Sequence record: MN176217
Source: Escherichia phage vB_Eco4M-7
Reading direction: 5' to 3' (one strand)
Length of the DNA stretch: 64,000 nt
The notes beneath the pieces are model-generated. The model searched no databases, had not been told where the DNA came from, and saw only the letters and a list, made by a program, of their open reading frames with translations. Made by a program: the position numbers and the translations under genes. Shown piece after piece: positions 43,193 to 53,502 of this stretch; the first letter of the stretch is position 1, and each line of letters begins with the position of its first letter.

Positions 43193-44053
43193 TTAAAACT
43201 CTTCTGCGTCGGTCGGAGTTTCATTGACAGGACCAGCGGCACCGCTTGCTTCTTCCTGCTTGCTGCGGTCGATGTTAACGTTACCGCCAACTACGTCGTT
43301 GTGGAATGCCTTGGCGACTTCGTACAGGCCTTTGTCCTGCACCAGACCTTCTAGCTCAAACTTCAGAACAGACCAGGTGTTGCCGTCTTTGGACTGGGAT
43401 GCAGTACCCATGCGAACGATGTTCATAAAGGTCGGCGGCGTTTTCAGACCCTGCGGAGTCTGAACTTTCTTCTGCTGCAGAGCGGTCATCAGCATGCGAG
43501 ACGGCTTGATCATGGAAGAAGTCAGAGACAGCATTGCGCTACCAAATTCACCAGTTTCTTCGTTCAACAGAATTACGAAGTGGTTGCGTGTATCTGCGTA
43601 GTAAGGAGATTTCTTCTCGTGCACCTTGCCGTTTTCGTCCGGCACGAATACCTTACCGTTGATCTCAACAGCGCGGCCTGCCGCGACTTCTGCATCAACG
43701 TGCTCTTTGGTGAATTCACCTTTAAAGCCTTTATCGTCGGACTCGCGACCGCCCCAAAGAATGAAGGTGCGTTTGAATGCGCAAGGGATGATCTGCACGC
43801 CTTTCTTACCGTCATACAACTCACCAGTAACGGTGTTGTAAAGCATGCCAGCTTTTGCACCAGGAACGTGTTTTGGATCATCTTCGTCGACCATAGGAGA
43901 CATCTTCTGCAGGACGACGATAAAAGGAATGGCATACGCATCGGCATCGGCACCTTCAAAACCAGCGCCAAAATCGGTCATGTCGACAAAATCAGCCATA
44001 GCGGACATCTGGGTGTTTTTCACTGCAACTTCGGTAGTTTCTTTCTTAGACAT
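43193..44053 (-). CDS. Single-stranded DNA-binding protein candidate (T7 gp2.5-like)
   Basis: 286 aa with acidic C-terminal tail ending ...TDAEEF, as in SSB interaction tails. Confidence 0.4.
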   Translation of the reverse strand: MSKKETTEVAVKNTQMSAMADFVDMTDFGAGFEGADADAYAIPFIVVLQKMSPMVDEDDPKHVPGAKAGMLYNTVTGELYDGKKGVQIIPCAFKRTFILWGGRESDDKGFKGEFTKEHVDAEVAAGRAVEINGKVFVPDENGKVHEKKSPYYADTRNHFVILLNEETGEFGSAMLSLTSSMIKPSRMLMTALQQKKVQTPQGLKTPPTFMNIVRMGTASQSKDGNTWSVLKFELEGLVQDKGLYEVAKAFHNDVVGGNVNIDRSKQEEASGAAGPVNETPTDAEEF

Positions 44054-44112
44054 TTGATATTTTCCTATAGTATCAAGTTTCGTGGCAACCTGATTTCAAG
44101 ATAAAGGTTAAA

Positions 44113-44670
44113 TTACTTTTTGCTTTTAGGCAAGGTTATTTTAGCTTCTTTGTATTCAAAAACGCTAATATCTTCACTAACTGGGTTGCCCGCTTCCAGC
44201 TGTTCTTTTACAAATGACTTCAGTGTAGCAGAATGAACGCCTTGTTTCAATGTGGCTTCAACACCATCTTCACGCAGCGCGGCAACAATCTCTTGCGCCT
44301 GTTCGATTTCTTCGCGACCGAACTCAGCCGTGACGCTGGACTTGATCAAGCCGCCGTAACCGTTGTTTACAAGCCAATCGAAAACTTTTAATTCGTTTTC
44401 TTTCTTGATTGAAGCGTTCACCTTGGACTCGACCTTGATTTTGGTCTTGTCCTCAAGCTTGATTTCGGACACACCAAGCTCATCCATAACGCCAGGAAGC
44501 AGAACAGTTTTGATTTCACTGATGCGCTGCTTTTGCATATCAGCTTCATCTTCAAGCTCTGTCAAAGCTTCTTGGCGTTCTGCCAGTTCAGATACTAAGC
44601 GCGCAAGGCGCTCTTGAATGCCCTCAGGAGCAACCTGCGGCAAATCATCTTCCCAATTAATATTGCTCAT
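44113..44670 (-). CDS. hypothetical protein with N-terminal coiled coil
   Basis: ORF 185 aa. Confidence 0.4.
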   Translation of the reverse strand: MSNINWEDDLPQVAPEGIQERLARLVSELAERQEALTELEDEADMQKQRISEIKTVLLPGVMDELGVSEIKLEDKTKIKVESKVNASIKKENELKVFDWLVNNGYGGLIKSSVTAEFGREEIEQAQEIVAALREDGVEATLKQGVHSATLKSFVKEQLEAGNPVSEDISVFEYKEAKITLPKSKK

Positions 44671-45004: not shown

Positions 45005-46528
45005 TTAATTCATCTTTTTGCCGTCGAGGATGTGATCAGCAAGCATAGACTTCATACTCAATGAACGCTGAATTTCTTCGTCGATGGTATCAACCCCAAT
45101 AAAATCAACATACAACACGCTTGATTTGGTGCCGATGCGGTGATTTCGGTCTTCGGATTGCTTGCGCAACTCGTTGTCATAGTTGCAAGAATAATAGATT
45201 GCCAAGTCGGCGGCGGTAAGCGTGATTCCGATGCCTGCCGCTGCAGCGTGACAAACTAAGACTTGCGTTCCACCGTTCTCAACTGTGTTCTTTTGGAAGT
45301 CATCAATCAAGAACTCGCGCTGCTCTTTTGATGTTTCACCGTTGTACACACCAGTGACCACGCCTTCAGACTCAAGCCAATCCTTAATCTGGTTCATCTC
45401 TTCCTTAAAGATGGCCCAAACAATGAATTTGCGCTCTGGGTCATCTTCCAACACCCCTTCCACATAGTCCTTAAAGGCCGTGAATCGTGGGTTGTCTTCC
45501 ATGTACACCATCTCATCATACACCTTAACAAAGCCTGATGTCACCTGCTTCATCTTAGTGCGAGATGCGATCATCTCAAACTTAACGTTTTCTTCTTCGC
45601 CTTTATACTCCATCAGATAGTTGTACTCATTCTTGAGTTCATCATAGACATCGCGCTGCTTAGGCGACAACTCGAAGTCGATAAACTTGTACACCTTCTC
45701 TGGAAGGTCCGGCAGGTATTCCGCTTTTGTCGCGCGGAAATAGTGCGGCTCCATCAGCCGGATAAGCTTGTCAAGGTTTTTGTACATCGGTCGGCCAAAC
45801 TGGTCTTTGCGCGGCACTTGCGGAATGCCATAACCGTTGCCGCCGATTTTCTTGAGAATGGCCTGCATCTCTGGGTCGTGCGCTTCAAGTAGTACTGTGA
45901 ATTCAGAGTTAAATGCGCGGAACGATTTGGTGCCAAGCAAACCTGCTTCAAGGAAGTGATACTGCATGTAAATATCAGCAGGCGAGCGCGGCAGCGGCGT
46001 ACCGGAAAGGATTCGACGGGCCTTTGCCAGCCGTCCCAATTCCACAACCTTGATGGAGCGTTTGGCTGTGTTATTTTTGATACGCGTCGATTCATCAATG
46101 ATCATCAAACAGCGGTATTTCTTCAAGACCGACTCAATGTGTTGATAACCGACTGGTGTGTTGACGGTGTCAATGTTGAATGAGAAGATGCGCGCAGGCA
46201 CTTCGCCTTCAGGGTAGTGATCAGCAAACATCTTCTCCCAAAGCGCCTTGCCCTTTTTAGTCTTCATCTTGTCATTGCCGCGCCAGTAATGCCCAATCCA
46301 CTTGATGGAAAGGTGTTCTGGTGCTTCACGACGAATCCAGTTTGAGTGTACACCGTTAGGAGCGATGACAACCATGGCATCAAATGCGCCAGCGGCGAAG
46401 TGTTTTTCAAACTCTGCCAAAGCGGTCCAGGTTTTGCCAAGACCCTGCTCCATAAAATAAGCAAAGTATTTTCTGCGGCCTGCTTTATCAAGCGCCAATA
46501 ATTGGTGGCGCATTCCTTGTGTTTTCAT
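45005..46528 (-). CDS. SNF2-family (DEAD/DEAH) helicase
   Basis: Motif I GLGKT, motif II IIDESTRIKN, C-terminal helicase domain. Confidence 0.7.
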   Translation of the reverse strand: MKTQGMRHQLLALDKAGRRKYFAYFMEQGLGKTWTALAEFEKHFAAGAFDAMVVIAPNGVHSNWIRREAPEHLSIKWIGHYWRGNDKMKTKKGKALWEKMFADHYPEGEVPARIFSFNIDTVNTPVGYQHIESVLKKYRCLMIIDESTRIKNNTAKRSIKVVELGRLAKARRILSGTPLPRSPADIYMQYHFLEAGLLGTKSFRAFNSEFTVLLEAHDPEMQAILKKIGGNGYGIPQVPRKDQFGRPMYKNLDKLIRLMEPHYFRATKAEYLPDLPEKVYKFIDFELSPKQRDVYDELKNEYNYLMEYKGEEENVKFEMIASRTKMKQVTSGFVKVYDEMVYMEDNPRFTAFKDYVEGVLEDDPERKFIVWAIFKEEMNQIKDWLESEGVVTGVYNGETSKEQREFLIDDFQKNTVENGGTQVLVCHAAAAGIGITLTAADLAIYYSCNYDNELRKQSEDRNHRIGTKSSVLYVDFIGVDTIDEEIQRSLSMKSMLADHILDGKKMN

Positions 46529-46947
46529 GACAATTCCTCTAAATACTTGATGATGTGATGAATAGTTCCCTTCACGATTATCTCACGTTGAACGTCTGCA
46601 GTATTATAACGCTTTAATTCAATCGAAGGGTGGACTAAATAAAACATCTTCTCAGAATCAACCTTAAGCAAAACGAATGATGGGTATCTCCAATCATTCC
46701 AAGAAGAAAGAAAGCTGCATTGACCTTTCTCAAATGCATTTCTGAAAGGTGCAGTGGTGGCCCTTGCAGGCCACGATTCAAAGAACTTCATTTCAAGCCA
46801 AAAGCCGCGCCCTTTCCGGTTGGTGCCGATTACGTCCGGCACGCCGTCACCCGTCATCGACTCGATTCGTTGAAGCTTCAATACTGATTCTGAGTGCTTC
46901 TTCAGGGGCACGAAAATGTATTTTTGTTCACGGTTATTTGTTGCCAT
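46525..46947 (-). CDS. VRR-NUC domain nuclease
   Basis: PD-(D/E)xK-type GVPDVIG...GFWLEMK; start taken at ATG 46947. Confidence 0.55.
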   Translation of the reverse strand: MATNNREQKYIFVPLKKHSESVLKLQRIESMTGDGVPDVIGTNRKGRGFWLEMKFFESWPARATTAPFRNAFEKGQCSFLSSWNDWRYPSFVLLKVDSEKMFYLVHPSIELKRYNTADVQREIIVKGTIHHIIKYLEELS

Positions 46948-49831
46948 CTGGATACACCTGTTTGATAACGTCGACGATGAACATGTCAATTCCTTCAAGC
47001 TTGCGACCTTTCATCAGGAAGAATGCGCCGTTCCCGACGTTTTCAGCAATGTATTTCCCGTACTTCTGGAACTTCTCTGGACGAATCCTGAAGCGCATTG
47101 GCGAGTCTGTCGAGTCGTCTTTGCACATAAGGTCGATGAACTGAGTCTCAAGCTTGTTCCCGTACTGGTCAAACTCTGCGTAGCGGCCATCAGCTTGAAG
47201 ACCCTTTTTAAGCTTGCCGTGCTTTGTATAGATGCCGCGCTCAAGTCGTTTACGGATGCGTGTTGCTTCGTTCTCGTCCGCAAGCACTTTCTTTGTCAAC
47301 TTGCCGATTACTATTGCACGCTCGTCATCGCCGACTTCCTTCATCTGGCGTATTGAAGCGCCGGACGTCACGCCAATCAGATAAGGGTCATTATATGCCC
47401 ATCCGAACTTTGTGTGCATCTCTGTAAGGTCGCCATATTTTACTTCAGCAGCGGCCAATGCATCCTTCTGTTTTTGCGTTAATGTTCCGGCTTCGCGCGC
47501 TTCGATATACTTCATCGCCTTCACCATGCCGTACCCTTTCGCGTTCATAATGCCGCCGATTAGCTTTCCGTTCGCGATTGTCCAGTTCATTGAAGAGTGA
47601 TCAGGGTCGATTGGAACGTAATCCACGCCTTCCTTCGCAAGTTCACGTAATATCGCAATCGTCTGGTCTTCGTCCTTAGCAGCGCGTAAGCAGGCAGCGG
47701 CAAATTCCAACGGGTAGTGTCGCTTAAGCCACAATGTCCAGTAGGTCACGACCGCGTATGACACGGAGTGCGACTTGTTAAAGCCCCATGACCCGAACGT
47801 GGCCATCGCTTGCCAAAGCTTTCTTGCATCCGCTTCCGGTACGCCGTTATTTATTGCGCCTGCAACGAAGTCTTCGCCAAGCTTGTTAAAGTATTCTTCA
47901 CCCTTACGGCCTGACATTGCCTTACGTACAGCGGATGTTTTCGCCCAGTCAAATGAACCAATCTCTTTGACCACGGCCATGATTTGCTCTTGGTAAAGAA
48001 ACACTCCGTAAGTCTCTTTTAAGTACGGCTCAAGCTGCGGCACGTCGTATTCAATCGGCGCACGCCCTGCCGCGCGTTCAATGTATTTCTGGGCCATACC
48101 GGACGACAACGGTCCAGGTCGACCAAGGGCTGTCAGGTTATCGATTTTGTTGAAGTTGTCAACGTGCACAAAGTTTGTCACTGAGCGTACAGCATCGCCT
48201 TCGAACTGGAAGATGCCTGACATCTTGTTTTCGTTAAGGATGTCAAGGACGCTTTGATCATCAAGCTTGATTCCGTAGAGCGTTTCAGCATCAATAACGC
48301 CTGTATCAGAAATAATGCCGAGAGTACGAAGGCCCAGCGCATCAAGCTTCAAAAGGTTGAGGTATTCGCTGTCAGGCTTATCGATTTGCGCAATCCCTTC
48401 TGCAGTTACAGTACAGTAATCAGAGATTGGGTCATTACAAACAATGATTCCCGCTGCGTGCACCCCTGTGTGGGACGGGTGAATCTCAAGGTCACCCATG
48501 CAACGCGCGGCGTCAGGATATTTCGCCACGAACTCTTGGCCCGTGGTCGTTGTTGCAAAGGTATCCTCCAGGCCGTGACCATAACGGGCGTCACCGGATG
48601 AGTATTCAAGCAGTGCGTTTTTAATGTTGGCCGTTTCGTGGTATCCAATGTTGAACTTCTTACCAACCTGCGCCATTACTGAGTTGGCCTTAAGCGTGTT
48701 GATGTTGCCAAGCTTTGCAACGTTCATTTCGCCGTATTTCTCTTTAAGATAATCAAACACCATATAGCGTTTGGTATCTTCAAAGTCGATGTCGATGTCA
48801 GGAAGGTCGGCGCGGCTTACGTCGATGAATCGGGCAAACAGCAGCTTATACGGGATTGGGTCCACTTCCGTGATGCCGAGGCAATAGCAAACAAGTGAAC
48901 CAGCCGATGAGCCGCGTGCAGGACCGACGAGCATTTTTGTTTTTGCGAATCGTACAAGGTCCGCTACCACCAGAAAGTATGAGTCGAAATCTTTCAGCTG
49001 AATCTGGTGAATTTCTTCGTTGAAGCGGTCCTCATATTCCTGAGTCCATTCTTTGATGTGACCTGCTTTTAGACGGTACTCCATCCCCTCGCGAGCAAGC
49101 TTTACCATGTCACCAGCAAGGTGAATAATCGGTGCCTTACGCAATTTCAAGTCAAGTCCGACTATGCCGTTTGCTATGTCAACAGCATTGGCCGTTGCCT
49201 GATCAAGTTCATCTTCAGTCAAGATGCCTTTAAGCTGTTTGCGCAAGTCTTCCACGCCAACGATGCAATGCGGCTTAACCGTATCGCGAACTTCCCAAGC
49301 ATAAGCGAAGTCAACGTGCTCAGGAGAAGGCATGTGATTGTATCCGGTTAAAACCAGCGGCCTTCCACCGCTACAATGAGCCAATGCCTGGCGCTTTGCC
49401 AAAAGGAACGATGATGGGTTGACGTCTATATAGTCGTAGTCCTCTGGCCGCAGCAGCTCCACGGCACCGCCACAGAATTTAACGACGCCATCAAGCGCAC
49501 CGAACTCTGCACGGGTAAGGCCGCCGCGCTGCGTTGCAAGTGTCGTAGCGTTGTAAAAAGATTTTAAGTCAAGGGCCAATATCCAAGCCTTCGGTTTGAA
49601 TCCCTTTTTCGGGTCCGCATCAGGGTCGATGATTGGAATCTCCATTCCAAACATAGGCTTAATATCATTTTTCTGGCATTCCTTTTCCCAGCGAACGTGA
49701 CCCCATGTGTTGTTATCAACTAATGCCGCGACTTCGCAGCCCAACTCTTTGAGCCGTGCTATAATTTCAGGATGCCGTCCATAAACTTCTTTGAACGTGT
49801 AACCGCTGCGAACTCTCAATTGTGGAAACAT
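46934..49831 (-). CDS. dnaE: DNA polymerase III alpha-type (DnaE-like) replicative polymerase
   Basis: 965 aa; signature NKSHSVSYAVVTYWTLWLKRHYPLEF; N-terminal PHP region looks degenerate. Confidence 0.75.
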   Translation of the reverse strand: MFPQLRVRSGYTFKEVYGRHPEIIARLKELGCEVAALVDNNTWGHVRWEKECQKNDIKPMFGMEIPIIDPDADPKKGFKPKAWILALDLKSFYNATTLATQRGGLTRAEFGALDGVVKFCGGAVELLRPEDYDYIDVNPSSFLLAKRQALAHCSGGRPLVLTGYNHMPSPEHVDFAYAWEVRDTVKPHCIVGVEDLRKQLKGILTEDELDQATANAVDIANGIVGLDLKLRKAPIIHLAGDMVKLAREGMEYRLKAGHIKEWTQEYEDRFNEEIHQIQLKDFDSYFLVVADLVRFAKTKMLVGPARGSSAGSLVCYCLGITEVDPIPYKLLFARFIDVSRADLPDIDIDFEDTKRYMVFDYLKEKYGEMNVAKLGNINTLKANSVMAQVGKKFNIGYHETANIKNALLEYSSGDARYGHGLEDTFATTTTGQEFVAKYPDAARCMGDLEIHPSHTGVHAAGIIVCNDPISDYCTVTAEGIAQIDKPDSEYLNLLKLDALGLRTLGIISDTGVIDAETLYGIKLDDQSVLDILNENKMSGIFQFEGDAVRSVTNFVHVDNFNKIDNLTALGRPGPLSSGMAQKYIERAAGRAPIEYDVPQLEPYLKETYGVFLYQEQIMAVVKEIGSFDWAKTSAVRKAMSGRKGEEYFNKLGEDFVAGAINNGVPEADARKLWQAMATFGSWGFNKSHSVSYAVVTYWTLWLKRHYPLEFAAACLRAAKDEDQTIAILRELAKEGVDYVPIDPDHSSMNWTIANGKLIGGIMNAKGYGMVKAMKYIEAREAGTLTQKQKDALAAAEVKYGDLTEMHTKFGWAYNDPYLIGVTSGASIRQMKEVGDDERAIVIGKLTKKVLADENEATRIRKRLERGIYTKHGKLKKGLQADGRYAEFDQYGNKLETQFIDLMCKDDSTDSPMRFRIRPEKFQKYGKYIAENVGNGAFFLMKGRKLEGIDMFIVDVIKQVYPDGNK

Positions 49832-50373
49832 TATTTACTCCAGATGTCATATACGCCAATTTGTTGGCAGACTTTGTGCAGTAATATTACGTCGTCTAAT
49901 GCACGGTGTTTCTGTTCATATTTTCCGAAATATAATTCATACAGCTCTTGAAGCTTAACTCTTCGGCCAAAAATAGGCAAGGTTTGCTCAACTGTACAAA
50001 TGTTTATTTCTGGAAAATTAACATCATCAAGCGTAAGTCCTTCGCGCTGTAGTGCATAATCAAGAATGTTTTTATCGAACGCATGGTTGTGCGCGATAGT
50101 GGCATCCGTCTTCTTGAAGATTTCTTTTAGCTGCGGGACAAAATTGATGAATGGTGGATTGCACTCAAGGTCTTCATTTGTTAATCCGGTAATCTTTGTG
50201 ATAATTTCTTCAATCACGATTTCAGGATTAATTATGAATTCAAACGTTTCAAGAATCTCTTTGCCGTCTGTCAACAGACCTGCAAATTCAATAGGGCGCG
50301 GCTGCATCCCAAGCGGCGCTTTCGGGTGCACGGTCAATCCGGTTGTTTCGAAGTCATAAGGGAGAAATAACAC
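49831..50373 (-). CDS. DnaQ-like 3'-5' exonuclease (DEDDh family)
   Basis: Exo motifs DFETTG, HNHAFD, HRALDD. Confidence 0.75.
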   Translation of the reverse strand: MLFLPYDFETTGLTVHPKAPLGMQPRPIEFAGLLTDGKEILETFEFIINPEIVIEEIITKITGLTNEDLECNPPFINFVPQLKEIFKKTDATIAHNHAFDKNILDYALQREGLTLDDVNFPEINICTVEQTLPIFGRRVKLQELYELYFGKYEQKHRALDDVILLHKVCQQIGVYDIWSK

Positions 50374-50427
50374 ATTAGCCTCCTACAAAAAGGCCGCCCA
50401 TTAGGACGGCCACAGATTCACGATTCG

Positions 50428-51075: not shown

Positions 51076-51759
51076 TTATTTACCAAATGGAATATCAGTA
51101 CCAGACATAAAGCGCCATGCGCCCGTAATTAAGATATGGCGAATGAAGTCAGCAATTACTTGCGGCTCAGTCTCCAATCCATTCATCAATGCCTTTTTCT
51201 GGTATTCAGCGGCGTATTCAGGAGTCCAGCCGCGAGTCGCGCAAACGGCATCTTCAATCTGTTTAGACATGCCAGTGCCGCGCAACTTGTTAGGACTAAT
51301 AGAGAATACCGTGATGCCGTACTTAGGCGTAAGTTCGTGAGCCATCTGCTTGCTGATCATAAGCGCAGCAGCCTTGGATGCATTATAACATAAGCTGGAC
51401 GTCATAGGAATATGCGCAGCGTTGGAAACAATGTTGATCACAAAGCCTTTGTTGTCGATAAGACTTTTCAGCGCAGCCTGAGTCGTGTTAACGAAAGAGA
51501 ATGCGTTGGTGTGCATAACGCGGTTAAACTCTTCATAGTTTACATCTTCAAACCAATTGTTAGAGTTGACACCAGCACAGTTGATCAAGCCTTCAACATC
51601 ATATGGGCTTAAAATTTCTTTCATCTGTTTAGCATCGCGGACGTCATATCCGTATGCTGAATCGATGCCAAGCACGTTATGACCGTAAGCGCCAAGGGTG
51701 TCAAAAATAGATTTACCAAGACCGGAATTGGAACCTGTTACAACAATTACTTTTTTCAT
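51076..51759 (-). CDS. Short-chain dehydrogenase/reductase (SDR)
   Basis: Cofactor motif VTGSNSGLGKS and catalytic YNASK. Confidence 0.65.
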   Translation of the reverse strand: MKKVIVVTGSNSGLGKSIFDTLGAYGHNVLGIDSAYGYDVRDAKQMKEILSPYDVEGLINCAGVNSNNWFEDVNYEEFNRVMHTNAFSFVNTTQAALKSLIDNKGFVINIVSNAAHIPMTSSLCYNASKAAALMISKQMAHELTPKYGITVFSISPNKLRGTGMSKQIEDAVCATRGWTPEYAAEYQKKALMNGLETEPQVIADFIRHILITGAWRFMSGTDIPFGK

Positions 51760-51826: not shown

Positions 51827-52702
51827 CTATTTATTGAAATTAATATTATGGGTGTTGACAAGACGTTCACACATGGCGCTATAAACACCATCGTCGTGTA
51901 TCGAGTCTTCATGCTTCAGGCCGCTGATTGCGAAGCGTGTAAGCTTGACAATCTTAAGCTCGAACAGGTGCCACATGTGGTAGTCTTCCGGTGTCTTCAA
52001 CGTTACGCCATTAGGGAACAACACCTGCATAACCTGACCTACCATCACAGCGTTATCGCCATAAACGGCATTGCGCTCACGGAAGGTCGCTGCCATCGCA
52101 TCAAGAATATCAGCAGCGGTTGCTGGGGCTTGTTGTTCAACTTCAACAAGTTTAGTCTCTTCTTTTCCTGTTGCACTTGGATCAACTGCTAATTGTTGCA
52201 CCACTTCACCTGCCTTGCAAAGATTAAATGTAAAGGCGATTTTATTTTGCGCCATGGAATTATAATGCAAAGCTTCTTCTTGCATCCGCGCGAGTACGTC
52301 TTGTCTATCTTCAAATACGTTGATTATTCGATAATCGCCGTGTCGCAATACATACGATAACCATGCAGATTTCATAACAGTTGATGGACGCTTGTCGCCA
52401 TGTTCTCTCATCTTGATTGTGAATTCATCAAAAGGGAAAACGTTGTCCAGACGTTCAAAAGTGACTTGTCTGTATTTTTCTGGTCTTGCAGTCCAATATT
52501 CAACCGCCTCACCGCGAAGTGATGCCGTCTCTACTGCTGACGCAATGTTAGGATAGAACTGATCATAACCAATGCCGCTGTGGTAATCATCATAGTCGGA
52601 CAACGGGCCTGCCACCCTGATACGGTCTAAGCGCCAACGGTCATCAAACAGAGTTCCGTCAAGGTCGAATACGTTTAAGATTTGGTTATTTTTGATACTC
52701 AT
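51827..52702 (-). CDS. HAD-superfamily phosphatase domain protein with extra C-terminal domain
   Basis: N-terminal DLDGTL motif I; 291 aa. Confidence 0.5.
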   Translation of the reverse strand: MSIKNNQILNVFDLDGTLFDDRWRLDRIRVAGPLSDYDDYHSGIGYDQFYPNIASAVETASLRGEAVEYWTARPEKYRQVTFERLDNVFPFDEFTIKMREHGDKRPSTVMKSAWLSYVLRHGDYRIINVFEDRQDVLARMQEEALHYNSMAQNKIAFTFNLCKAGEVVQQLAVDPSATGKEETKLVEVEQQAPATAADILDAMAATFRERNAVYGDNAVMVGQVMQVLFPNGVTLKTPEDYHMWHLFELKIVKLTRFAISGLKHEDSIHDDGVYSAMCERLVNTHNINFNK

Positions 52703-53502
52703 CCTTTTGATACTCCATCTTTGGCAACTGGATTATTGGTGATTGGCATCGCATCCCAAAACTGGATGCGCAACTCTTCTTGCTGTGCAGTGGTATCCAT
52801 CCAATCACGATACCATGGGCAATGGGCCTTACCGTGACGAGGAAATGCGCACTTACCCATACCGATGCACTGCGGCTGTAGTAAAGGATTGGCCCACGGG
52901 TGCACCTTAAGGACTTCCGCAACCATTGCACGGAATACTTCTTGATACTCGCCTTGAGTACGCGTGCACAAGCGGTTAGAGGCCATTTGTTGTAGAGTGC
53001 GCAAGTTGAACTTTGCCATGATATGCGTTTGCATATTAGAAGGCAACACGGCACGTGCATCTTGAATCTCTGCGCCAGCCGCGCGAAGTTCTTGGTATAG
53101 GGCGTCAATGGTTGCCATTGCATCATCCCATTTCTCTGCCAGTTCAGCAGCCTTCTCGTCATGACGAGTCCATCCCTTTGGATCATCCTCTGGGTAAGTA
53201 AATTTGGCAGGACGAATCGCATCAAACGCTGATGACTCTTGAGCGCGGCTTGTGCGTTCTTGATATGCACCTGTTCGTGTGCGCACCATCTGATGAGTCA
53301 TATTCTTTGATACATCAGTGATGTCAAAGATATAGTCAACAAAGTCGAAAGGTGACTTGATGGTGTCAAGCATGTAGCGCCAGTGCTCTTGCTTCTCTGA
53401 TTCTGTCATCTCAGAGACGGGCTTGCCAGTCATGCGCGTGTTCTTTGTTTCCAGCAAAAGGTCAAGTGCATCTTGGGTGTATCGAATTAATTCAACTTTC
53501 AT
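52699..53502 (-). CDS. thyX: ThyX-like flavin-dependent thymidylate synthase homolog (variant active-site motif)
   Basis: THQMVRTRTGAYQERTSRA aligns with ThyX SHQLVRHR...S signature but has RTR in place of RHR. Confidence 0.5.
   Translation of the reverse strand: MKVELIRYTQDALDLLLETKNTRMTGKPVSEMTESEKQEHWRYMLDTIKSPFDFVDYIFDITDVSKNMTHQMVRTRTGAYQERTSRAQESSAFDAIRPAKFTYPEDDPKGWTRHDEKAAELAEKWDDAMATIDALYQELRAAGAEIQDARAVLPSNMQTHIMAKFNLRTLQQMASNRLCTRTQGEYQEVFRAMVAEVLKVHPWANPLLQPQCIGMGKCAFPRHGKAHCPWYRDWMDTTAQQEELRIQFWDAMPITNNPVAKDGVSKG

What the first reader, a model, noticed from the sequence alone, without database searches (positions are those of the whole stretch)
46934..50373. Split replicase: DnaE-type polymerase with degenerate PHP domain plus a separate DnaQ-type exonuclease
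The polymerase has the DnaE palm signature but its N-terminus (LRVRSGYT rather than a His-rich PHP motif) appears to lack metal ligands. The adjacent 180-aa DEDDh exonuclease probably supplies proofreading in trans. This is a minimal pol III-like core in a phage.
Basis: partly seen in the sequence, partly recalled or inferred. Interest (0 to 1): 0.4.

Follow-up and report, generated by a model that had tools for sequence, protein, structure and literature searches.

The report
Phage DnaE polymerase with separate proofreader
This E. coli phage (vB_Eco4M-7n, a PB1-like myovirus) carries a bacterial-type DnaE DNA polymerase whose built-in PHP editing domain has lost its metal-binding residues, next to a small DnaQ-like exonuclease gene that most likely does the proofreading; the genes are already annotated in public records, so this is a sound but ordinary finding.

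Summary
Two overlapping minus-strand genes encode a 180-aa DEDDh exonuclease (49831-50373) and a 965-aa DnaE-type C-family polymerase (46934-49831). The polymerase has an intact catalytic triad (D345, D347, D497). Its N-terminal PHP barrel is confidently folded but keeps only 1 of the 9 canonical metal ligands (R6, R8, E15, N40, E64, G77/K81, G122, H166, P168). The exonuclease has all five DEDDh residues, resembles E. coli epsilon and PolC exonuclease domains, and is not RNase T or Orn.

Both traits are clade-wide. In 79 polymerases from related viral loci, none has more than 4 of 9 ligands. In 76 of 76 loci with enough upstream sequence, the exonuclease gene lies upstream on the same strand. 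Mycobacteriophage Chill has 9 of 9 ligands and no DEDDh gene; Rhizobium phage RHEph10 has a degenerate PHP and a separate DEDDh gene. This matches the rule already published for bacteria (Barros 2013).

Trans proofreading is therefore well supported by comparison but not shown biochemically. The differences from E. coli Pol III core are that the exonuclease lacks epsilon's C-terminal alpha-binding tail and clamp motif, and the polymerase lacks a clamp motif and tau-binding domain. The genes are publicly annotated and listed in the 2020 genome paper. Low novelty, modest interest.

The parts
49831..50373 (-). DEDDh (DnaQ-like) 3'-5' exonuclease gene, 180 aa, GTG start. Catalytic residues D7, E9 (Exo I), D100 (Exo II), H156, D161 (Exo III). 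Catalytic core only, with no C-terminal extension.
50379..50383 (-). GGAGG Shine-Dalgarno, 5 nt upstream of the exonuclease GTG
   Evidence: read from the sequence
50387..50411 (-). Terminator-like element: 8-bp GC-rich hairpin (GGCCGTCC/GGGCGGCC, 4-nt loop) followed by TTTTT. It lies between the stop of the upstream 183-aa ORF and the exonuclease ribosome-binding site.
   Evidence: read from the sequence; function not tested
49829..49833 (-). TAATG stop/start overlap between exonuclease and polymerase, suggesting translational coupling; a GGAG lies 7 nt upstream of the ATG
   Evidence: PB1 ORF56/ORF55 also overlap by one base in the annotation
46934..49831 (-). DnaE-type C-family DNA polymerase gene, 965 aa
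49112..49831 (-). PHP domain (aa 1-240): (beta/alpha)7 barrel retained, but the nine metal-ligand positions read R6, R8, E15, N40, E64, G77/K81, G122, H166, P168 against the consensus H, H, D/H, H, E, H, C/H, D/N, H
47627..49111 (-). Palm, thumb and fingers (aa 241-735) with catalytic D345, D347, D497
46937..47626 (-). C-terminal region (aa 736-965): the part aligning to E. coli alpha up to about residue 871, then a beta-rich OB-like domain (strands at 838-852, 897-904, 912-916, 937-944, 950-959). No clamp-binding-type motif and no tau-binding domain.
   Evidence: the OB assignment is tentative
46525..46947 (-). Context only: 140-aa ORF overlapping the polymerase 3' end by 14 nt and the SNF2-type helicase gene by 4 nt. 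Conserved in PB1 as ORF54. Function unknown.

Best explanation
The two genes encode a phage-borne, two-subunit C-family replicase core. The 965-aa protein is a catalytically intact DnaE-type polymerase. Its PHP domain survives only as a structural barrel and can no longer hold the trinuclear metal centre that gives PHP its 3'-5' exonuclease activity in Thermus and Mycobacterium DnaE1. The 180-aa DEDDh exonuclease is made from the same transcript with an overlapping stop/start, and it removes misincorporated 3' nucleotides in trans, as epsilon does for alpha in E. coli. Shown here: the identity and intactness of both active sites, the loss of the PHP ligands, retention of the fold, and clade-wide co-inheritance. 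Inferred: that the two proteins bind each other, and that the exonuclease proofreads. Because the exonuclease lacks epsilon's C-terminal tether, any docking must use a different interface.
For: Polymerase identity and active site. Model pLDDT 86.7; Foldseek to Mtb DnaE1, Taq and E. coli alpha at E 1e-44 to 1e-48, TMq 0.68-0.75. PHP ligands. In 79 polymerases from related loci (34-69% identity), none exceeds 4 of 9 ligands and positions 1-2 are almost always Arg/Lys; Arg replacing metal ligands is the substitution pattern Barros 2013 reports. PHP still constrained: 62 of 240 columns at >=90% conservation, and it hits the isolated E. coli PHP domain and RNase AM PHP. Exonuclease: DEDDh invariant; model pLDDT 95.2, TM 0.83-0.86 to the E. 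coli epsilon core; profile hits PolC-type exo 3.6e-14 and epsilon 2e-7. Co-inheritance: exonuclease upstream on the same strand in 76 of 76 loci with enough upstream sequence; 361 phage records with the exonuclease against 372 with the full-length polymerase, from the same host genera. Contrast: Chill and P1201 DnaE have 9 of 9 ligands, and the whole Chill genome has no DEDDh gene (best E 0.75). RHEph10 has a degenerate PHP and one separate DEDDh gene.
Against: There is no biochemical or interaction evidence. The exonuclease lacks the C-terminal segment through which E. coli epsilon binds the alpha PHP domain (abstracts), so complex formation cannot be assumed by homology. No natural exonuclease-polymerase fusion was seen in 75 pairs. 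In 7 loci, 500-2200 nt separate the two genes, and in RHEph10 they are 27 kb apart, so tight linkage is not obligatory. The contrast with intact-PHP phages rests on one whole genome (Chill), one partial locus (P1201), and tblastn counts. PHP positions 6 and 7 lie in low-confidence parts of the alignment.
Confidence: 0.75

Rival explanations
1. The DEDDh exonuclease is a free-standing nuclease with another job, such as host DNA degradation for nucleotide salvage, recombination-end processing or primer/flap trimming, and it merely sits in the replication operon. In that case the polymerase replicates without proofreading.
For: No alpha-binding tail. Structural neighbours also include non-replicative DEDDh nucleases such as TREX1/2, ExoX and the DinG exonuclease domain. 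The neighbourhood is full of nucleotide-metabolism genes: ThyX, PNK, MazG-like and ligase. Linkage is loose in some relatives.
Against: Strict co-occurrence with the PHP-degenerate polymerase across the clade, and absence from a phage with an intact PHP. Overlapping stop/start with the polymerase gene. A ~68-kb genome replicated with no proofreading at all would be unusual (general knowledge).
Confidence: 0.13
2. The PHP domain keeps a catalytic role despite the ligand changes, for example a reduced one-metal site or a pyrophosphatase activity, so the polymerase is not purely dependent on the partner.
For: E64 (54 of 57) and D166 (52 of 57) are conserved in the family, along with several other acidic barrel residues (D39, D88, D136, E180). 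A paper claims pyrophosphatase activity for the ligand-poor E. coli PHP domain (PMC4822814, abstract).
Against: Both HxH histidines are Arg and position 9 is an invariant Pro. Positions 3, 4 and 6 are unconserved, and the window itself has H instead of D at position 8. The E. coli PHP domain, with more ligands retained, binds no metal (Barros 2013).
Confidence: 0.07
3. Proofreading is borrowed from the host: E. coli epsilon docks on the phage PHP domain, and the phage exonuclease is redundant or has another role.
For: The PHP fold resembles the E. coli alpha PHP domain that binds the epsilon tail (4gx8/4gx9).
Against: Sequence identity of the PHP domain to E. coli is low (26% over the hhalign region). 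The same gene pair occurs in phages of Pseudomonas, Xanthomonas, Burkholderia, Serratia and others, which argues for a self-contained system.
Confidence: 0.03

Closest known systems
E. coli DNA polymerase III core (alpha DnaE + epsilon DnaQ)
   Same: DnaE-type polymerase whose PHP barrel is kept but has lost metal ligands, with Arg substitutions (E. coli R10, R203; phage R6, R8). Separate DEDDh exonuclease of about 180 aa catalytic core. Same domain order PHP-palm-thumb-fingers.
   Different: The phage PHP is more degenerate (1 of 9 against 4 of 9). The exonuclease has no counterpart of epsilon residues ~181-243, which carry the clamp-binding motif and the alpha-binding C-terminal segment. The polymerase has no clamp-binding-type motif and ends about where the E. 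coli OB domain ends, so it has no tau-binding domain. No theta subunit is evident. In the phage the two genes are adjacent and overlap, whereas E. coli dnaE and dnaQ are about 27 kb apart.
DnaE1 with active PHP proofreader (Thermus aquaticus, Mycobacterium tuberculosis) and actinophage DnaE-like polymerases (e.g. Mycobacterium phage Chill gp69)
   Same: Overall fold and polymerase core (Foldseek E 2e-48 to Mtb DnaE1). A phage-encoded C-family polymerase; even a FabG-like/ThyX neighbourhood is shared with Chill.
   Different: Chill gp69 and P1201 gp59 keep all nine PHP ligands, and Chill encodes no DEDDh partner anywhere in its genome; Thermus and Mtb DnaE1 are reported to have an active PHP exonuclease (abstracts). 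The window polymerase has lost the ligands and has a DEDDh partner.
PolC (Gram-positive Pol III) with its DEDDh exonuclease inserted in the PHP domain
   Same: The phage exonuclease scores highest against PolC-type exonuclease models (NCBIfam polC_Gram_pos 6e-18; T. maritima PolC-type exo 2p1j 3.6e-14).
   Different: The phage exonuclease is a separate polypeptide. The polymerase has an uninterrupted PHP domain and DnaE-type domain order, and PolC is a much weaker structural match (E 3e-27 against 1e-48).
Pseudomonas phage PB1 ORF56/ORF55 and other Pbunavirus/Wifcevirus replicase genes
   Same: Direct orthologues: 59% identical polymerase, 56% identical exonuclease, same order and a one-base overlap. 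Relatives annotate them as Pol III alpha plus epsilon / 'DNA polymerase exonuclease subunit'.
   Different: Nothing substantive. PB1's polymerase is 1035 aa with an insertion.

Membership tests
C-family DNA polymerase, DnaE type (Pol III alpha) | Palm domain with the three catalytic aspartates (E. coli D401, D403, D555) | tested here: met
   D345, D347 and D497 align to them and are invariant in 57 family members
C-family DNA polymerase, DnaE type (Pol III alpha) | Pfam DNA_pol3_alpha and DNA_pol3_finger above gathering score; NCBIfam superfamily model TIGR00594 | tested here: met
   214.3 bits against 23.9; 129.5 against 22; TIGR00594 474.9 against 434.35
C-family DNA polymerase, DnaE type (Pol III alpha) | NCBIfam equivalog cutoff for cellular DnaE (PRK05673) | tested here: not met
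   495.4 bits against a cutoff of 1002. It is a diverged phage lineage, not a cellular DnaE1 equivalog.
C-family DNA polymerase, DnaE type (Pol III alpha) | N-terminal PHP fold, uninterrupted by an exonuclease domain (which distinguishes DnaE from PolC) | tested here: met
   Seven beta/alpha units at pLDDT mostly above 90. Foldseek hits the isolated E. coli PHP domain (1e-7) and RNase AM PHP (5e-4). hhalign spans E. coli residues 5-307. No RNase_T domain in the polymerase.
Active PHP proofreading exonuclease (as in Taq/Mtb DnaE1) | Nine metal ligands H, H, D/H, H, E, H, C/H, D/N, H | tested here: not met
   Window reads R, R, E, N, E, G/K, G, H, P, which is 1 of 9. In 79 related polymerases the maximum is 4 of 9.
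E. coli-type Pol III holoenzyme alpha subunit | Internal clamp-binding motif (E. coli 920-QADMF-924) and C-terminal tau-binding domain | tested here: not met
   No Qxx[LMIV][FLWY] motif anywhere in the protein. E. coli 920-923 aligns to KLTK. The chain ends at about E. coli residue 1080.
E. coli-type Pol III holoenzyme alpha subunit | C-terminal OB-fold domain | tested here: inconclusive
   Beta-rich region at 838-959. Only a weak RPA OB hit (E 0.097), and no sequence-level match past E. coli ~871.
DnaQ/epsilon-type DEDDh proofreading exonuclease | Exo I/II/III motifs with D, E, D, H, D | tested here: met
   D7, E9, D100, H156 and D161 align to E. coli D12, E14, D103, H162 and D167 and are invariant in 33 sequences. 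Pfam RNase_T 78.7 bits against 24.
DnaQ/epsilon-type DEDDh proofreading exonuclease | Fold of the epsilon catalytic core | tested here: met
   Model pLDDT 95.2. E. coli epsilon 2gui/2ido/1j53: TMq 0.82-0.84, TMt 0.85-0.86, rmsd about 2.5 A.
DnaQ/epsilon-type DEDDh proofreading exonuclease | NCBIfam dnaQ cutoffs (TIGR01406 dnaQ_proteo, TIGR00573 dnaq) | tested here: not met
   43.8 bits against 222.7; 37.0 against 71.5
DnaQ/epsilon-type DEDDh proofreading exonuclease | C-terminal segment that tethers epsilon to the alpha PHP domain, and a clamp-binding motif | tested here: not met
   The protein ends about 15 residues after Exo III, and E. coli epsilon's last ~60 residues have no counterpart. 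All 120 listed homologues are 177-209 aa.
DnaQ/epsilon-type DEDDh proofreading exonuclease | Physical association with the polymerase and 3'-5' mismatch excision | not testable with these tools
   Only indirect evidence: synteny in 76 of 76 loci and the stop/start overlap
   No RNase T/Orn model among 24 NCBIfam hits at E<=0.01, none among 24 PDB profile hits at E<=0.01, and none among the top 50 Foldseek hits

The most novel reading that the evidence does not exclude
The PB1-like phage lineage evolved the 'dead PHP plus trans DEDDh proofreader' solution independently of proteobacteria, and its tail-less exonuclease docks on the polymerase through an interface unlike the epsilon C-terminal tether. 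It might, for example, seat directly on the PHP barrel in a non-covalent, PolC-like way. Hints: the exonuclease scores higher against PolC-type and actinobacterial DEDD models than against proteobacterial dnaQ (64-67 bits against 37-44). It has no tail. A FabG-DnaE-ThyX neighbourhood is shared with an actinophage whose PHP is intact, which suggests an old phage DnaE module that later recruited an exonuclease.
Probability: 0.3. Interest if true: 0.45.

Novelty: new member of a known kind. Interest (0 to 1): 0.25.

Why it matters
It extends to phages a rule known from bacteria: C-family polymerases lose PHP metal ligands when a separate DEDDh proofreader is present. Within the limits of a small sample, the rule appears to hold across phage lineages (PB1-like and RHEph10 against actinophage DnaEs). 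The pair is also a compact candidate two-protein C-family replicase with no recognisable clamp or tau contacts, which could be a convenient minimal system for studying how a DnaE polymerase hands a mismatched primer end to a trans exonuclease. It does not change current understanding, and the genes are already annotated.

Tried and rejected
- phmmer of the N-terminal 249 aa alone against PDB sequences found nothing, even at E<=10. The PHP homology is only detectable with profiles or by fold.
- I tried to obtain residue-level Taq and Mtb PHP alignments by querying with the E. coli PHP domain, but the five printed alignments were all E. coli entries. I used Barros 2013 Table 1 and two actinophage DnaEs with intact motifs as intact-PHP references instead.
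- I considered predicting an exonuclease-linker-polymerase fusion to test docking.
- I looked for natural exonuclease-polymerase fusions as Rosetta-stone evidence. None occurred in 75 pairs, and none of the 120 listed polymerase homologues carries PF00929.
- RHEph10 looked like a counter-example, with a degenerate PHP and no neighbouring exonuclease. A whole-genome scan found a distal DEDDh gene, gp092.
- I tested whether the 140-aa ORF downstream of the polymerase matches the gene downstream of Chill's DnaE. It does not, and it has no Pfam or NCBIfam family.
- Literature searches found no paper on PHP status or proofreading in phage DnaE polymerases. The search library is incomplete.
Full report
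**What is there.**
The window is 100% identical over 46934-50373 to Escherichia phage vB_Eco4M-7n (PP596836.1). It is 93-97% identical to Wifcevirus phages (WFC, WFH, FEC19, Bas98-101), with weaker nucleotide matches to Pseudomonas PB1-like phages. Two minus-strand ORFs sit exactly at the stated coordinates: a 180-aa ORF (49831..50373, GTG start) and a 965-aa ORF (46934..49831).

The junctions show a tightly coupled gene chain:
- A GGAGG lies 5 nt before the exonuclease GTG, directly after a GC-rich hairpin plus T-run that follows the upstream gene.
- The exonuclease stop and polymerase start overlap as TAATG.
- The polymerase 3' end overlaps the next ORF by 14 nt, and that ORF overlaps an SNF2-type helicase gene by 4 nt.

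**The polymerase.**
Sequence evidence for a DnaE-type polymerase is strong:
- Pfam DNA_pol3_alpha 3e-63 and DNA_pol3_finger 1e-37.
- PHROG 405 at 3.6e-269.
- NCBIfam superfamily model TIGR00594 above its cutoff; the cellular DnaE equivalog models are not reached.
- phmmer E about 1e-85 to E. coli, Taq and Mtb alpha over the palm and fingers.

The catalytic aspartates D345, D347 and D497 align to E. coli D401, D403 and D555 and are invariant in a 57-member family alignment.

An AlphaFold2 model built on that alignment is confident (pLDDT 86.7, pTM 0.80). It superposes over its full length on Mtb DnaE1, Taq and E. coli alpha (Foldseek E 1e-44 to 2e-48, TMq 0.68-0.75).

No clamp-binding-type motif is present. 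The chain ends about where the E. coli OB domain ends, so there is no tau-binding domain. This agrees with an earlier survey that found phage C-family polymerases diverge after the fingers (PMC3201878).

**The PHP domain.**
Pfam detects PHP only marginally (26.7 bits against a 26.4 cutoff, first half of the profile only). The isolated N-terminus finds nothing in the PDB by phmmer.

The fold is nevertheless there:
- The model has seven beta/alpha units at pLDDT mostly above 90.
- It hits the isolated E. coli alpha PHP domain (4gx8/4gx9, about 1e-7) and the RNase AM PHP domain.
- hhalign of the family N-terminus to E. coli alpha spans residues 5-307 (probability 96.4%, E 1.3e-9).

I read that alignment against the nine-ligand table of Barros et al. 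2013:

| Position | Consensus | E. coli | Window | Family (57 sequences) |
|---|---|---|---|---|
| 1 | H | R10 | R6 | Arg wherever the column is present |
| 2 | H | H12 | R8 | Arg, one Lys |
| 3 | D/H | D19 | E15 | variable |
| 4 | H | F44 | N40 | variable |
| 5 | E | D69 | E64 | Glu 54/57 |
| 6 | H | H83 | G77 or K81 | variable |
| 7 | C/H | G134 | G122 | Gly/Ala |
| 8 | D/N | D201 | H166 | Asp 52/57 |
| 9 | H | R203 | P168 | Pro 57/57 |

The window therefore keeps 1 of 9 canonical ligands and the family consensus 2 of 9. E. coli keeps 4 of 9 and binds no metal. Arg in place of a metal ligand is the substitution pattern Barros et al. describe.

The domain is the least conserved in the protein (51% mean identity to the window, against about 75% for palm and fingers). 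It still has 62 of 240 columns at >=90% conservation, so it is a maintained scaffold and not a decaying remnant.

**The exonuclease.**
- Pfam RNase_T 9.6e-22; PHROG 192 'DNA polymerase exonuclease subunit' 2.3e-37.
- D7, E9, D100, H156 and D161 align to E. coli epsilon D12, E14, D103, H162 and D167 and are invariant in 33 homologues.
- All NCBIfam hits are DnaQ, PolC-exo, DinG-exo or generic DEDD models, none reaching an equivalog cutoff. RNase T and Orn are absent.
- A phage-only profile hits the T. maritima PolC-type exonuclease (3.6e-14), E. coli epsilon (2e-7), PolC, DinG, ExoX, DnaQ and TREX1.
- The model (pLDDT 95.2) superposes on the epsilon catalytic core at TM 0.83-0.86 and about 2.5 A.

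The protein stops right after Exo III. It has no counterpart of the last ~60 residues of epsilon. That region contains the segment through which epsilon binds the alpha PHP domain (abstracts of PMC2528190 and PMC3664792). From general knowledge, it also holds the clamp-binding motif QTSMAF, which is visible in the E. coli row. All 120 listed homologues are 177-209 aa.

**Comparative test of the interpretation.**
tblastn finds the polymerase at >=80% coverage in 372 phage records and the exonuclease in 361, from the same host genera: Pseudomonas, Escherichia, Serratia, Burkholderia, Xanthomonas and Pantoea. PB1 itself has the same layout with a one-base overlap.

In 80 IMG/VR loci at 34-69% polymerase identity:
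- A DEDDh gene lies upstream on the same strand in all 76 loci with enough upstream sequence. The other four have little or no sequence upstream of the polymerase.
- None of the 79 polymerases recovered exceeds 4 of 9 PHP ligands.

About a thousand other phage records, mostly actinophages, carry DnaE-like polymerases that match only the palm and fingers. They are not among the exonuclease hits. Three were checked directly:
- Mycobacteriophage Chill gp69 and Corynephage P1201 gp59 have 9 of 9 ligands. A filter-free HMM scan of the whole Chill genome finds no DEDDh gene (best E 0.75).
- Rhizobium phage RHEph10 has a degenerate PHP and one separate 189-aa DEDDh gene, 27 kb from its polymerase.

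This reproduces, in phages, the coevolution Barros et al. reported for bacteria. The sample outside the PB1-like clade is small.

**Mechanism.**
Best-supported reading (confidence about 0.75): this is a self-contained two-protein replicase core. The polymerase's PHP domain is structural only, and the co-translated DEDDh exonuclease proofreads in trans.

Active-site integrity, ligand loss, fold retention and co-inheritance are shown. Complex formation and proofreading are inferred. Because the epsilon tether is absent, docking, if it occurs, must differ from the E. coli mode.

Rivals, none excluded by experiment:
- A free-standing nuclease with another role (0.13).
- Residual PHP catalysis (0.07).
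- Use of host epsilon (0.03).

**Novelty.**
The genes are annotated in relatives as Pol III alpha plus epsilon, PolC-type exonuclease or 'DNA polymerase exonuclease subunit'. [quoted passage not shown] C-family polymerases in phages have been catalogued since 2011 and occur in 1,378 of 50,697 phage records.

I found no paper describing the PHP ligand loss or the tail-less exonuclease in this clade. That is a modest extension of a known rule, so I rate it a new member of a known kind with interest 0.25.

The most novel reading not excluded is independent, convergent evolution of this arrangement in phages with a different docking mode.

Noticed in passing
window 51076-51759 (-) and 52699-53502 (-); L005 4145-4840 and 8808-9908: A FabG-like short-chain reductase and a ThyX thymidylate synthase flank the DnaE gene both in this E. 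coli phage and in mycobacteriophage Chill. The FabG-like proteins are 29% identical (E 5e-20). This suggests an old FabG-DnaE-ThyX module shared by proteobacterial and actinobacterial phages, although only the latter keeps an intact PHP.
   Followed up: partly
window 46525-46947 (-): A 140-aa ORF is wedged between the polymerase (14-nt overlap) and the SNF2-type helicase (4-nt overlap). It is labelled 'DNA helicase' through PHROG 2165 but is far too small for one and has no Pfam or NCBIfam match. It is conserved in PB1 as ORF54. It could be an unrecognised replisome accessory protein or nuclease.
   Followed up: partly
window 50387-50411 (-): An 8-bp GC-rich hairpin plus TTTTT sits immediately between the stop of the 183-aa glyoxalase-like ORF and the exonuclease ribosome-binding site. 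It may be a partial terminator separating the nucleotide-metabolism genes from the exonuclease-polymerase-helicase chain.
   Followed up: no
proteins P0113 and P0099; L004 2995-6102 (PB1 ORF55): Some family polymerases are 70-270 aa longer. P0113 (1232 aa) carries an intein domain (PF14890), and PB1's 1035-aa polymerase aligns to the window protein in two pieces, which indicates insertions in the polymerase gene in parts of the clade.
   Followed up: no
L055, L056, L081 and four other IMG/VR loci: In 7 of 75 loci, 500-2200 nt are inserted between the exonuclease and polymerase genes, against under 100 nt in most. These may be mobile or homing-endonuclease-type insertions.
   Followed up: no
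L089 1226-4639 and 31873-32442 (Rhizobium phage RHEph10): An unrelated 115-kb phage has a DnaE with a degenerate PHP (A, R, E, T, R, H, -, K, R) and a separate 189-aa DEDDh exonuclease (gp092) 27 kb away. It is a second phage lineage that follows the 'dead PHP plus separate exonuclease' pattern, without gene adjacency.
   Followed up: partly
window 43193-44670 (-): Downstream of the helicase are homologues of Pam3 gp33-like (DUF7307, 2.6e-37) and Pam3 gp34-like (4.2e-86) proteins. These are conserved PB1-group proteins of unknown function that sit in the replication operon.
   Followed up: no
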